Positions 5,365 to 57,693 of a stretch of DNA of 64,000 nt are shown here, one piece after another. Every line of letters begins with the position of its first letter. Position 1 is the first letter of the stretch. The position numbers were made by a program, and so were the translations under genes. This DNA comes from the human T2T-CHM13v2.0 reference genome, Homo sapiens. Below the pieces are notes generated by a model. It was given only the letters and a program-made list of their open reading frames with translations, made no database searches and was not told the origin of the DNA. Location: NCBI RefSeq assembly GCF_009914755.1, contig NC_060925.1, one strand, 5' to 3'.

Positions 5365-5548
5365 CTTCCCCCACTTTAATATAAATGTTTCTTGCTATCT
5401 TGAGTTCGGTGAATGAAGTAACTGCTCCATACTCTTTTCGGGCCCAATTTAACAGATGTTCATTTCCACGGGGGAAGTTCCTTTCTTCTGTTTCTGCTGT
5501 CAAGGAGAAGTTTGCTGATGAAAACTGGACCACAGAACCCTCAGACAC
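5365..5548 (-). CDS. TGFBR3: TGFBR3 coding exon (exon 5, 184 nt, phase 0 to 1): VSEGSVVQFSSANFSLTAETEERNFPRGNEHLLNWARKEYGAVTSFTELKIARNIYIKVGE
   Basis: Recognisable betaglycan sequence; acceptor tctttcctctag|GTG, donor AAG|gtaaat. Confidence 0.98.
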
Positions 5549-6828
5549 CTAGAGGAAAGAGAATTGCGTATTTAACATGGTGCAGTCACCGGAGCTGAAT
5601 CATAATTAGAGAAAGTACTTCTCAGATCGAAGTGCTTGTAAATCGAACCTCTTCCCTTCGTTATATAAGCAGATCAGCGTTTTTAAGCAGCGGATTCAAG
5701 GAATAATCCCAAGCCTAGTCCTCCCAGACAAAGGCAAAACTACCAATGCAGGATGTCCCTCTGAACTCTGAAAGAACCTTGTGATGACGGACTGCATTGC
5801 ACATTGAGTAATCATAAGAATTATCACTGCTATTTCCAAGAAATCTAAATTGAAGACCAATCTTACAATGAATGTATTTCAAGTCAAGTGGGAAGCCTTG
5901 ATGAATGTTCTCGTGGGCTTATAAAAAGCTTCAGGATCAAGACAAGTGATCCCAAAGTCCTGCTAGCAACTGATCACGACTTTCAGGTCTTCCATAGTTG
6001 CAGCATCTGCCAACAGAGTCATCACAATAGGGACACAGCGAGAGTCCTCTTGGTTTATGTTCACCTCAGCACTGAGATAAAAATGGCCAAAGGTTGCCAG
6101 CCTTTCTATCACATTGCTCTATTTCATAAGAGTGAGATGAATGTTTGTAACAGTTTATTGTGTAAGACCCCCAAATTCCCATAGATAATGAAGTCAAGAG
6201 GCTGTTAAACTGATCTAATAAAACTTTCAGGATGACGTATGCAAGTACCTCATTCTTGCTGAATGTATTTAGACCACTGCTGACCTAGCATATCATGGTA
6301 TATGTGTAATTAACACATCCAAAGGAGGAAAATCATCATCTTGTTGCTGTGCTATAATCAAATTTAGTTGCTGGTGAAAATATGCATGCCATTTTTGTTG
6401 GCTAGCATTTATAAAATAACTGATTTTTTCAATGTCAGAGTGAAACCTCAAAATGTGGGCAAGAAGGCTCACAAATTCTCAGGTCATAGAACTATAAATG
6501 TCTTGTATTAAATTTCACATGAACCATTTATTCATAACGAAAAGCATGCAGTTTCTGAAGTAAGACTAAGAAGCAAGTCGAGGGCAGGGATTTTATTAGT
6601 GGTTCTATCACAGCAGCATTTTTAACACACACAAAATTATATTTTCCCAGCTACTGTGCTAGGCATTAATATTTTCTATACAATTATATAAACGTATCTT
6701 CTAAAAACGCTGGCAAAAAAAAGTACTTCACTTAATTGATTCCATGACCTACTAATGTTGCAAGCTGAAAACTAGAATCACCTGAAAAGTTTCTAGATAT
6801 CCTGATGCCCGGGCCACACAGATGGTAC

Positions 6829-7135
6829 AGAGCTACATGTTCCACTCTGGTTTTGTTTATAACTGGCATCAGGACATTCAGAAATGATCGTGACTACACT
6901 TGACAGCACTGATACGTAGTAAGTGTGCAGTCAGTGGTAGCTGTGTAGAACTACACAGGGCTCTGTGGAAGCCCTGAATTAATCACTAATAAACTCGGTG
7001 TAAACCAAAGCTACTCACAACAGCTACCACTGACTGCACACTTACTACGTATCAGTGCTGTCAAGTGTAGTCACGATCATTTCTGAATGTCCTGATGCCA
7101 GTTATAAACAAAACCAGAGGGGAACATGTAGCTCT
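6829..7135. repeat. Long inverted repeat: 116-bp arms (6829-6944 and 7020-7135), 1 mismatch, 75-nt spacer
   Basis: Arm 2 is the reverse complement of arm 1 base by base, except 6844(A) opposite 7120(G). Confidence 0.97.
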
Positions 7136-8442
7136 AACCTTGTTTTGACGTCGCCTGAATAAGAAAAAAATCCTAGGTCATTTTCCTGCCAAAAAATAAC
7201 CATGCCCACCTAAGTGTAACTTCTCTGAGGCTTAGCTACTCATCAACACTGAACTTCCAACAATGTTTATCTAATTTTTTGACTTTTGCACTGTAGTAAA
7301 ATCTTCCTTTCACTTGTACTAAAAAGGCATTTTTATCAAGGCTGTCACCAAAACCCACAACAGTCCAGAGGCCTTTGTCCCACTGCCAGCACAGTTCTGA
7401 ATGTTTAGACGAGAAACCCTGGATGTTCTGCTTCTTGTTTCTCATTCATGTTGTGGCCATAAACTAGAGCAACCCTATATACATTATACACAGAGTACAT
7501 TTTTCAGAGCGGAAAGCGGGATGTCACACTGGTGCATTCCAGAGGCAAGAAAGCAAACAGCACAAATACAGAAGATATCAACGGCAACTCCGAATTGTGT
7601 CCTGAAGTAATTAAAGAGCGATGCCGTGATGAAGCTGGTGATGGGGCTGATTCGTGGAGGAGGAACAACTCCCTCTGCTCCCTCCAGGCATTGTTGTCCT
7701 CACGGGCCAGCAGCAATAAGCTTCATACACTCAGGGCTGAGGAATTTGGAACTGGAGTTAACTGCCACTCCTCAGGCACATTCCAATAAGAAGAAAGCAA
7801 AGCTGCAGTGAGGTGTCCCTGACTGCAGGTCAGTGGAAATTTTCAGCTTCAGCAAGGAGTGAGCTAGCACTCCCCTCCTGACTGCCAGCTCTCCTGACCC
7901 TGACAAGGCTACAGCTGAGTTTTAGAAGGTGTTGTTTTAGAAGGTATTGTTCAGATGTTATTTCCATCTGATTTGCGGAACTGTGAGGCAGGCTACGGTG
8001 ACCTCTACAGCAGAAAAGCGGAAACCTCAGAGAGTCTAATGGCCTACCCAAGGCCAGAGAGTCATGCACCAGGCCCAGACCAGAACTTAAGACTTCTGAC
8101 TCCTGGTCACAGCTGGCCTCTGCTTGCACCCTTCCAGAAAGAAGACCTCACTAGCTCCCAAGACAGCAGATTTCTGTTCTGTTAGATTCATTTTTTATAC
8201 ACTAGTCTGAGCCATGCCTACTAGAACAAAGAATTCCTTCGTCTTTCTTCCATGAGACAAGACTTCAGGTGTTTAAAGGTGTCATCTGACCTCAATCACA
8301 TGTTTGCTTTTTCAGGGCAACACCCCTAGCTTCTTCAGTTCTGCCCCAGATACCCTGGTTGTCAGAGCGTCAACAGGATAGTCTCTGAAAGACGGTGTCG
8401 GGACAAGATTCAAGGTCTCCAGGTATGGTCTGAGAAGCATAC

Positions 8443-8896: not shown

Positions 8897-9322
8897 GATA
8901 TAGTTTGCATATTTGTCCCCACCTAAATCTCATGTTGAATGGTAACCCCCAACGTTTCACATGGGGCCTGGTGGGAGGTGTTTGGATCATGGGGGCAGAT
9001 CCCCCCATGAATGGCTTAGGCCATCCCCTTGGTAATAAGTGAACTCTCGTCTTGAGTTCACGTGAGATCTGCTCATTTAAAAGTGTGTGGCACCTCCCCC
9101 GACACACGTTCTCTCTCTTGCTCCTGCTTTTGCCATGTGTAAGTGCCTGCACCTGCTTCATCTTCCTCCATAAGTAAAAGCATCCTGAGGTCTCCCCAGA
9201 AGCAGATGTTGGTGCTATGCTTCCTGTACAGCTTGCAGAACCATGAGCCAATTAAACCTCTTTTCTTATAAATTGCCCAGTCTCAAGTATTTCTTTTTAG
9301 CAATGCAAGAACAGCCTAATAA
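8897..9322 (+). mobile_element. MST-family (MaLR) solo LTR
   Basis: tgatatagtttg...aaatctcatgttgaat...gagccaattaaacctcttttcttataaattgcccagtctcaagtatttc...agcctaata. Confidence 0.9.
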
Positions 9323-9900: not shown

Positions 9901-10588
9901 TGGTACCTAACCCCCCAAGGTCTTTTCACCAGTTCGAGGCTTTTCTATCCTATCCTTATACCCATAATTCTCCCAAAATAAATGCAAAGTCTTATAGTTA
10001 TTCTTCAGACCCATATTTCAAGTCTGAAGAGACCATGTAAAAATCCTTATTTTATTAGCTATAAATAATTAAATTTTATAGCACACCTTCTGCACTTTCA
10101 TCTAAATCCCTGAGAGGTTGACCAAGACAAGGCTGAAGTCTGTGACTCATACGTACACTCCCACACTAACCTGAGCACATTAGCAGTCCTTGCTGGGGTT
10201 CCAGGTTGTTCAGCCAACTACCAAGGGATCTCACAGAACCTTCCTCATCTTTGTAAGGGCATCATGCTACAACCCGCCAAGAACCCTGCTGCATTAGTCC
10301 ATTCTCACACTGCTATAAAAAAATACCTGGGACTGGGTAATTTACAAAGAAAAGAGGTTTAATTGGCTCATGGTTCCACAGGCTGTACAGGAAGCATGGC
10401 TGGGAGGCCTCAGGAAACTTACAATCATGGTGGAAGGTGAAGAAGAAGCAGGCATGACTTATATGGCAGGAGCAGGAGGAAGAGAGGGAGTGGGTAGGTG
10501 CTACATACTTTTAAATAACCAGATCTCGTGGTAAATCACTCACTATGACGAGAACAGCACAAAAGAGGAAATCTTCCCATCCCCATGA

Positions 10589-22737: not shown

Positions 22738-22925
22738 TAGAGCTGCCCAATAAAGTACAGGACACCCAGTTAAAGTTGAATTTCAGGTAAACAATGAATA
22801 CTTTTTCAGTATATGTTATGTCCCATATACTACATGGGCACACTAACAAAATGATTTGTTATTTATCTGAAATTCAACTTTAATTGGGCATCCTCTATTT
22901 TTATATGCCAGCTCCAGCAATTGTA
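22738..22925. mobile_element. MER53 palindromic hAT MITE
   Basis: aggacacccagttaaagttgaatttcaggtaaacaa pairs with ttatttatctgaaattcaactttaattgggcatcct. Confidence 0.85.
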
Positions 22926-38347: not shown

Positions 38348-38812
<465 letters not shown>

Positions 38813-39033: not shown

Positions 39034-39755
<722 letters not shown>

Positions 39756-56665: not shown

Positions 56666-56960
56666 TTTTTTTTTTTTTTTTTTAGACAGCGTCTCGCTCT
56701 GTCTCCCAGGTTGGAGTGCAGTGGCGCGATCGTGGTTCACTGCAGCCTCAACCTTCGGGCTCAAGTGATCCTCCTGCCTCAGCCTCCCAAATAGCTGGGA
56801 CCACAGGTGCACACTACTATGCCTGGCTGTTTGTATTTTTGATAGAAACAGGGTTTTGCCATATTGCCCAGGCTGGTCTTGAACTCCTAAGCTCAAGCGA
56901 TCTGCCCGCCTCAGCCTCCCAAAGTGCTGAGATTACAGGCGTGAGCCACCACAGCTGGCC
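56666..56960 (-). mobile_element. AluJ
   Basis: Reverse dimer with cactgcagcctcaacc, ctcaagtgatcctcc. Confidence 0.9.
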
Positions 56961-57365
56961 TTCTGCAAATTTTTAAAATATATTAGTCATATTATTTGTC
57001 ATGTTTCATTAAATTCATTCTCTCTCAACTCTAATAGGTGCTAAAGACATAAAAATGAGTAAGAATCTGGCAGAGCACCTACCTAGCACACAGTGGGTTC
57101 TTAATAGTGATTCATTGAACAGGCCTGTGAATGAATAAACAAATTCATTATGAGAGCATTATTTAGAGAAGTTTGGTTTTATGAAGAGGTTCACAAGCTA
57201 GACAGAAAGAATCAGGGTCTAAAGCTGAAGAGGCCAGTCCCAGGAGACCAGTTAAGGAGGCTCCAGGGTAAGTGGAGAAAAACAGAGAAATTCAAGGGCA
57301 ATTGCAGAGGAAATGTCAATAAAATGTGGTGATTGGCCAAATATAGGGTTTAAAGAGAATGGGCA

Positions 57366-57693
<328 letters not shown>

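What the first reader, a model, noticed from the sequence alone, without database searches (positions are those of the whole stretch)
6829..7135. Near-perfect 116-bp non-Alu inverted repeat: a long dsRNA hairpin in TGFBR3 intron 4
Seen: 6829-6944 and 7020-7135 are exact reverse complements except one position (6844/7120), with a 75-nt spacer; CpGs are retained in both arms. The arms are not Alu or a palindromic MITE; only part resembles an old MIR/L2 tail. Known: near-perfect duplexes this long are substrates for ADAR, Dicer (hairpin endo-siRNA) and PKR, and close inverted repeats promote fold-back structures and spacer inversion. Inference: 1/116 divergence implies a very recent duplication or ongoing arm homogenisation. 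The hairpin lies about 1.28 kb upstream of the exon 5 acceptor and could be an undescribed editing hub, small-RNA source or splicing modulator.
Basis: partly seen in the sequence, partly recalled or inferred. Interest (0 to 1): 0.8.

Follow-up and report, generated by a model that had tools for sequence, protein, structure and literature searches.

The report
Recent inverted duplication in TGFBR3 intron
A 116-base stretch deep inside a TGFBR3 intron is present a second time, backwards, 75 bases away; this was probably caused by a copying slip during DNA replication, and the resulting long hairpin is real but most likely harmless.

Summary
6829-6944 and 7020-7135 are reverse complements with one mismatch (6844/7120) and a 75-nt spacer. 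The TGFBR3-sense RNA folds to -256 kcal/mol, z = -29. The sequence is single-copy in the 3.1-Gb genome. It matches nothing else in the window or in 200 kb of neighbouring DNA, so it is neither Alu nor a young transposon family. Identity falls to chance level exactly at all four arm ends, which points to one templated copying event. The best-fitting mechanism is a replication template switch or local inverted duplication. At 116 nt the tract is longer than the examples I read (28 and up to 83 nt, PMC10710096). One difference in 116 gives about 9 My, with a 95% range of 0.2-48 My, so "very recent" is not required. The left flank 6735-6822 is an older copy at roughly 65% identity, so the locus may have been hit twice. 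No Rfam family reaches threshold, and no paper found mentions this hairpin. The functional claims (editing hub, siRNA source, splicing modulator) could not be tested here. Deep-intronic position makes neutrality the default. It is a new member of a known kind, of modest interest.

The parts
6829..6944 (.). Arm 1 of the inverted repeat (116 nt). It is the 3' strand of the stem in TGFBR3-sense (minus-strand) RNA.
   Evidence: 115 of 116 positions are complementary to 7020-7135, with the mismatch at 6844; the only other genomic copy is arm 2.
6945..7019 (.). Spacer (75 nt), which forms the apical loop region. It holds its own small stems: 6941-6948/6951-6958, which straddles the arm border, and 6956-6962/6970-6976.
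   Evidence: sequence and folds. The spacer shows no complementarity about the repeat axis beyond chance: 12 of 37 positions, and a local score of 10 against 9.0 +/- 2.2 for shuffles.
7020..7135 (.). Arm 2 of the inverted repeat (116 nt). It is the 5' strand of the stem in TGFBR3-sense RNA.
   Evidence: The mismatch is at 7120.
6735..6822 (+). Older, degenerate third copy. It is direct with respect to arm 2 (7029-7112) and inverted with respect to arm 1 (6852-6935), at roughly 65% identity. With arm 1 it forms a decayed palindrome centred near 6837.
   Evidence: score 19 against 9.3 +/- 1.8 for shuffles; 0 of 1000, 0 of 1000 and 5 of 1000 dinucleotide shuffles reach the observed score under three scoring schemes; alignment A1; the fold of 6725-6945 has z = -3.1.
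5365..5548 (-). Downstream TGFBR3 exon (context only). Its acceptor lies 1280 nt from arm 1.
   Evidence: The hub's gene table; distance, and AG acceptor and GT donor at the stated borders.

Best explanation
This is a local inverted duplication made in one step by templated copying. During replication or break repair the growing strand switched to the complementary strand (or folded back on itself), copied 116 nt in reverse-complement orientation, and returned. In the four-point template-switch model this is type 3-2-1-4 or its mirror 1-4-3-2, the types that create an inverted repeat. The event happened in the primate lineage: maximum-likelihood age about 9 My, 95% range 0.2-48 My. Which arm is the copy cannot be told without an outgroup. 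An older, decayed inverted copy in the left flank suggests the same spot was hit before. In the TGFBR3 pre-mRNA the repeat folds into a 116-bp stem with 100 bp perfect. By established knowledge (recalled) of ADAR specificity for long perfect duplexes, the stem is probably edited promiscuously in the nucleus and then degraded with the 23.6-kb intron. It is most likely selectively neutral. What is shown: the anatomy, the single-copy status, the sharp borders and the folding energy. What is inferred: the mechanism, the date, the editing and the neutrality.
For: Exact anatomy. Sharp borders: outside the arms, complementarity is 12 of 40 (outer) and 12 of 37 (inner) positions; the gapped outer-flank score is 13 against 12.2 +/- 1.7 for shuffles. 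Single-copy status: three whole-genome DNA searches return only the locus. A 30-nt piece of the arm with up to 3 mismatches finds 1 forward and 1 reverse place, against 0 and 0 for the reversed control. Sensitive blastn and a sequence profile find nothing else in the window plus 200 kb. The mechanism is described in print. Loytynoja & Goldman 2017 (PMC5453318, passages read) report that type 1-4-3-2/3-2-1-4 creates an inverted repeat and makes up 31% of their high-confidence human-chimp events. Monttinen et al. 2023 (PMC10710096, abstract and first part of Results read) report more than 6,000 template-switch hairpins in primates, enriched in introns, with some loci hit twice. Date. Older copy. 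Tolerance of intronic duplexes: Barak et al. 2020 (PMC7006430, passages read) find depletion of near-perfect duplexes strong in mRNA and much weaker in pre-mRNA.
Against: No outgroup or second human assembly could be consulted, so the before-and-after comparison that defines a template-switch event is missing. The 116-nt tract is longer than the template-switch tracts I saw quoted (28 and up to 83 nt). The older copy at 6735-6822 shows that similar sequence existed here earlier, so a pre-existing diverged repeat that was later homogenised cannot be excluded. Microhomology at the switch points is weak. AGCTAC at 7009-7014 is complementary to 6937-6942, and ACA occurs at both 7017-7019 and 7020-7022; either could be chance. 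Neutrality is a default position, not a result.
Confidence: 0.62

Rival explanations
1. An old inverted repeat whose arms are kept alike by repeated gene conversion or classical (Ripley-type) template switching between pre-existing near-identical arms.
For: A third, roughly 65%-identical copy lies in the left flank, so this sequence has been repeated locally for a long time. The classical mechanism that perfects imperfect inverted repeats is described in PMC5453318.
Against: There is no decayed homology beyond either end of the arms or into the spacer. An old repeat with a conversion tract inside it should leave such shoulders. The 99% tract also extends 9 and 23 nt beyond the part that resembles the older copy, so at least those ends were newly copied.
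Confidence: 0.15
2. A functional RNA element, whatever its origin. In this reading the hairpin has been co-opted as an ADAR editing hub, a Dicer-dependent hairpin siRNA or miRNA-like source, or a structure that modulates splicing of the downstream exon.
For: The duplex is extremely stable in the transcribed sense. Intronic template-switch hairpins have given rise to at least 18 human miRNA genes (PMC10710096). There is a sub-threshold Rfam miRNA-model hit.
Against: The Rfam hits are far below threshold: 49.9 bits against a cut-off of 90, and 24.9 against 87. The better hit needs a 112-nt loop where the model has 17. The stem is 116 bp, whereas pri-miRNAs prefer about 35 bp (PMC10710096 introduction). 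The site is 1280 nt from the acceptor and 22,060 nt from the donor. No paper or supplementary table that I searched links TGFBR3 with such an element. One substitution has already been tolerated in the stem.
Confidence: 0.07
3. A palindromic non-autonomous DNA transposon (MITE) inserted as one unit spanning 6829-7135.
For: The long terminal inverted structure has that look. The outermost bases read CAGAG on the left (6828-6832) and TAGAG on the right in reverse complement, which resembles hAT-type ends; that motif is recalled, not tested.
Against: The genome holds no other copy. The flanks show no target-site duplication...gatggtac on the left, aaccttgt... on the right. Arms this alike would require a very young element, and no DNA transposon is known to have been active that recently in the human lineage (recalled).
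Confidence: 0.03
4. An assembly artefact, or a variant private to the CHM13 haplotype.
For: Only one assembly could be examined. Fold-back chimeric reads do exist in long-read data.
Against: A 75-nt unique spacer and one arm mismatch are not what a fold-back read chimera gives. The region is ordinary unique intronic sequence. None of this is a test.
Confidence: 0.05

Closest known systems
Template-switch mutations (four-point model) that create hairpins de novo in primate genomes (Loytynoja & Goldman 2017; Monttinen et al. 2022, 2023)
   Same: A fragment is the exact reverse complement of nearby sequence. The borders are sharp, the location is intronic, the result is a perfect stem made in one step, and a second, older event may have occurred at the same locus.
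   Different: The 116-nt tract is longer than the examples I read (28 and up to 83 nt). The ancestral state was not seen, so membership rests on anatomy alone.
Inverted-repeat Alu pairs, the usual intronic dsRNA substrates of ADAR
   Same: Both are intramolecular long duplexes in a pre-mRNA intron and expected substrates for nuclear A-to-I editing.
   Different: The arms here are unique sequence, not Alu. They are 99% paired, whereas the Alu-type pairs in this same window are 72-90% paired. The arms are also shorter (116 nt against about 300 nt) and closer together.
Hairpin-RNA (hpRNA) endo-siRNA loci of Drosophila and mouse oocytes (recalled)
   Same: Both are long, near-perfect, single-locus inverted repeats transcribed as one RNA.
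   Different: No small-RNA evidence exists here. Human somatic Dicer handles long duplexes poorly (recalled). This hairpin is intronic and has no promoter of its own.
Rfam RF03980 mir-2012 precursor
   Same: Both are hairpins. 18 of 33 letters on the 5' side coincide with the model consensus.
   Different: The score is 49.9 bits against a gathering score of 90. The loop is 112 nt against 17 nt in the model. The match covers only the inner third of the stem.

Membership tests
Template-switch mutation (four-point model) | A fragment that is the reverse complement of sequence close by on the same chromosome | tested here: met
   115 of 116 positions are complementary, 75 nt apart.
Template-switch mutation (four-point model) | Similarity ends abruptly at the switch points, with flanks unrelated | tested here: met
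   12 of 40 outer and 12 of 37 inner positions are complementary. Flank scores equal those of shuffles.
Template-switch mutation (four-point model) | A parent or outgroup sequence lacks the inverted fragment, and the change appears as one mutation cluster on one branch | not testable with these tools
   No primate or second human assembly is held. A supplement search of PMC7954356 for recalled hg38 coordinates and for TGFBR3 found nothing, and those coordinates are unreliable.
Template-switch mutation (four-point model) | Tract length within the range described | tested here: inconclusive
   The papers set lower bounds of 10-15 nt. The examples I read are 28 and up to 83 nt. This tract is 116 nt, and I found no stated upper limit.
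Palindromic MITE / DNA transposon | Many dispersed copies in the genome | tested here: not met
   Only the locus itself is found by whole-genome DNA searches and by a 30-nt pattern with up to 3 mismatches. Caveat: the tool warns that counts are lower bounds, and very old families would escape.
Palindromic MITE / DNA transposon | Target-site duplication flanking the element | tested here: not met
   The flanks gatggtac and aaccttgt share no direct repeat (printout).
Inverted-repeat Alu dsRNA | Arms are Alu elements | tested here: not met
   blastn of 6400-7600 against the rest of the window, which holds many Alus, gives no hit with E below 0.2.
Rfam mir-2012 / mir-744 | Score at or above the family gathering score | tested here: not met
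   49.9 bits against 90, and 24.9 against 87.
Canonical pri-miRNA hairpin | Stem of about 35 bp with an apical loop of 10 nt or more (as stated in PMC10710096) | tested here: not met
   The stem is 116 bp and the loop region is 75 nt.
ADAR hyper-editing substrate | Clustered A-to-I changes in RNA from the locus | not testable with these tools
   No RNA-seq data are available. The structure qualifies: 100 perfect bp, with 30 and 35 adenosines in the two RNA arms.

The most novel reading that the evidence does not exclude
The hairpin is an ape- or human-specific RNA gene born by template switching inside TGFBR3. It would be co-transcribed with its host, hyper-edited by ADAR1 and/or diced into endo-siRNAs. 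Its 100-bp perfect duplex would make it one of the few non-repeat long dsRNAs in a well-expressed human gene, with possible effects on local splicing or, when the intron is retained, on innate dsRNA sensing.
Probability: 0.07. Interest if true: 0.6.

Novelty: new member of a known kind. Interest (0 to 1): 0.3.

Why it matters
If the origin is confirmed, this would be an unusually long (116-nt) single-step template-switch product in unique human sequence. It would be a clean example of how replication errors create ready-made long RNA hairpins in introns. It could also serve as a natural test substrate, being non-repetitive and uniquely mappable, for ADAR, Dicer and dsRNA-sensor studies that are normally confounded by Alu multi-mapping. 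At the DNA level it is a close inverted repeat that could promote spacer inversion or deletion. Nothing so far suggests that it affects TGFBR3.

Tried and rejected
1. Repeat-family origin. blastn (word size 7) of 6400-7600 against the rest of the window gave no hit with E below 0.2. Adding 200 kb upstream, L005-L024, also gave nothing. Six weak hits piled on 6765-6818. Two of them were related to each other, and their sequence looks like fragments of the L1 3' end (my recognition from recall). Their overlap with the query was only 26-30 nt, so I judged them chance.

2. A sequence-only profile of the three local copies (R1) found only its own three training sequences in 264 kb.

3. MITE reading: rejected, as set out under rival explanations.

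4. Known RNA family: rejected.

5. Polarity (which arm is the copy). I looked for homology of the older copy extending past an arm border, but the alignment ends inside the arms, so this stays undecided.

6. Literature on this locus. Searches for TGFBR3 with inverted repeat/intron/dsRNA (listing read, only one listed paper held TGFBR3 and it concerns circRNAs), with hyper-editing/A-to-I (0 papers) and with host gene/intronic miRNA (8 papers, none about this from the listing). Supplement searches for TGFBR3 in PMC12695637 (0 of 2 files), PMC7006430 (0 of 3 files) and PMC7954356 (0 of 2 files). Barak's table covers only repeats over 300 bp, so absence there means little.

8. The exon/intron number could not be verified.

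Full report
OBSERVATION. The repeat finder reports arms 6829-6944 and 7020-7135, 116 nt, 99% complementary, with 75 nt between them. A base-by-base check finds one mismatch, 6844 A against C on the reverse complement of 7120, and 2 CpGs per arm at 43% G+C. The stem is therefore 15 bp, one mismatch (C opposite U in the TGFBR3 sense) and then 100 perfect bp. Chance expectation for such a pair in the window is about 10^-59. The minus-strand (TGFBR3-sense) RNA 6800-7165 folds to -256.2 kcal/mol against -101.3 +/- 5.3 for shuffles, z = -29. As single-stranded DNA the plus strand gives -156.7 against -41.7 +/- 4.3. The hub's exon borders carry AG acceptors and GT donors. The hairpin lies 1280 nt from the acceptor at 5548 and 22,060 nt from the upstream donor, in a 23,647-nt intron. 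I could not verify that this is 'intron 4'.

WHAT IT IS NOT. Every other inverted pair of 30 nt or more within 2 kb in the window is 72-93% complementary, and most are Alu-type. This pair is the only one at 99%. The arms have no significant match to the rest of the window (best E 0.23) or to a further 200 kb upstream. A few weak hits stacked on 6765-6818 turned out to be chance overlaps of 26-30 nt with what looks like L1 3'-end fragments, recognised from recall. Three whole-genome DNA searches of the 3.1-Gb assembly return only the locus: the arm alone, the arm with its left flank, and the spacer with arm 2 and its right flank. A 30-nt piece of the arm, allowing 3 mismatches, matches once on each strand genome-wide, namely the two arms, with 0 and 0 for the reversed control. 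The tool warns that its counts are lower bounds, and very old families (MIR/L2 age) would escape all of these tests. A young or sizeable palindromic transposon family is nevertheless excluded. The flanks show no target-site duplication. Rfam gives only sub-threshold hairpin hits: mir-2012 at 49.9 bits against a cut-off of 90, needing a 112-nt loop where the model has 17, and mir-744 at 24.9 against 87. A perfect inverted repeat is rewarded by any hairpin model, so the small E-values are not meaningful; that last point is inference.

ANATOMY THAT BEARS ON ORIGIN. Complementarity stops dead at all four arm ends. It is 12 of 40 positions outward and 12 of 37 inward, close to the 25% expected by chance. 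Gapped comparisons of the outer flanks, and of the spacer with itself, score no better than shuffles. That pattern fits one templated copying tract. It does not fit an old repeat with a converted core, which should leave decayed shoulders. The left flank 6735-6822 does resemble arm 2 in direct orientation (7029-7112), and so resembles arm 1 in inverted orientation, at roughly 65% identity. Under three scoring schemes, 0 of 1000, 0 of 1000 and 5 of 1000 dinucleotide shuffles reach the observed score (alignment). This was one of six comparisons tried. With arm 1 it forms a decayed palindrome centred near 6837 (fold z = -3.1). The 99% tract overshoots this older homology by 9 and 23 nt. The locus therefore seems to carry two layers: an old inverted copy and a recent one. 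The spacer/arm 2 border carries small repeats. AGCTAC occurs at 7009-7014 and again at 7022-7027, and it is complementary to 6937-6942. ACA occurs at both 7017-7019 and 7020-7022. An 8-bp mini-palindrome at 6941-6958 straddles the arm 1 border. These could be switch-point microhomologies, but they could equally be chance.

MECHANISM. The best fit is a replication template switch. In the four-point model of Loytynoja & Goldman (PMC5453318; passages read), copying a fragment from the complementary strand and returning gives an inverted repeat when the switch points are ordered 3-2-1-4 or 1-4-3-2. That type makes up 31% of their high-confidence human-chimp events. Monttinen et al. (PMC10710096; abstract and first part of Results read) report more than 6,000 such hairpins arising in primates, enrichment in introns, at least 18 human miRNA genes born this way, and loci hit twice. 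The tracts they quote are 28 and up to 83 nt, so 116 nt is long for the class. I found no stated upper limit. Which arm is the copy cannot be decided here.

AGE. One difference in 116 nt between two arms, at a recalled rate of 0.5e-9 per site per year, gives 8.6 My with an exact Poisson 95% range of 0.2-48 My. Rates from 0.4e-9 to 1e-9 move the estimate to between 10.8 and 4.3 My. The event is recent on a primate scale. It need not be human-specific, and retention of two CpGs per arm adds little.

LIKELY BEHAVIOUR. This paragraph is inferred from recalled general knowledge of the pathways. A 100-bp perfect duplex in a nuclear pre-mRNA is a textbook promiscuous ADAR substrate, and the two RNA arms hold 30 and 35 adenosines. 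The duplex sits in a 23.6-kb intron that is spliced out and degraded, so cytoplasmic sensors (PKR, MDA5) and Dicer would rarely meet it. Barak et al. (PMC7006430; passages read) find long near-perfect duplexes almost absent from mRNAs but much less depleted in pre-mRNAs, consistent with such intronic hairpins being tolerated. At the DNA level, the T2T non-B DNA survey annotates inverted repeats with loops up to 100 nt. It notes that folding with spacers above about 15 nt is debated (PMC11661062; passages read). This repeat would meet its criteria for automatic listing, which I did not check. A 75-nt spacer argues for modest fragility.

PRIOR DESCRIPTION. None of my searches found this hairpin in print. 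They were: TGFBR3 with inverted repeat/intron/dsRNA, with hyper-editing/A-to-I (0 papers) and with host gene/intronic miRNA (8 papers, none relevant from the listing). TGFBR3 is absent from the supplements held for PMC12695637, PMC7006430 and PMC7954356. Genome-wide dsRNA predictions such as dsRNAscan (PMC11838218; passages read) predict over five million putative dsRNAs. My search of its main text found no mention of TGFBR3, and I did not see its supplements.

VERDICT. This is a real, striking but probably neutral structural mutation. It is a new and unusually long member of the known class of template-switch or inverted-duplication hairpins. The decisive data are ape and pangenome alignments and RNA evidence from TGFBR3-expressing cells.

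Noticed in passing
window 6735-6822: An older, roughly 65%-identical copy of the arm sequence. It is inverted relative to arm 1 with about 29 nt between them. It suggests an earlier inverted duplication, or an ancient palindromic element, at the same spot.
   Followed up: partly
window 6941-6958 and 6956-6976: Two mini-palindromes at and just inside the arm 1/spacer border: CTGTGTAG-AA-CTACACAG, and CAGGGCT with a 7-nt loop then AGCCCTG. AGCTAC is also repeated at 7009-7014 and 7022-7027 across the spacer/arm 2 border.
   Followed up: no
window 22752-22805 / 22848-22901: A 54-nt inverted repeat, 80% complementary with a 42-nt spacer. It looks like an old palindromic MITE-type element.
   Followed up: no
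window 9214-9267 / 10347-10400: A 54-nt inverted pair, 93% complementary, 1079 nt apart in the same intron. The second arm lies in a stretch that the hub lists as repeat-masked.
   Followed up: no
window 38634-38777 / 39419-39562 and 56830-56961 / 57365-57496: Ordinary inverted pairs at 82-83% complementarity in stretches the hub lists as repeat-masked, taken here to be Alu. These are the usual kind of intronic dsRNA in this gene and a useful contrast with the 99% pair.
   Followed up: no
window 6893-7071: The sub-threshold Rfam mir-2012 alignment shares 18 of 33 letters with the model's 5' arm, more than base pairing alone needs. I judged it coincidental after a search of 4227 families.
   Followed up: partly
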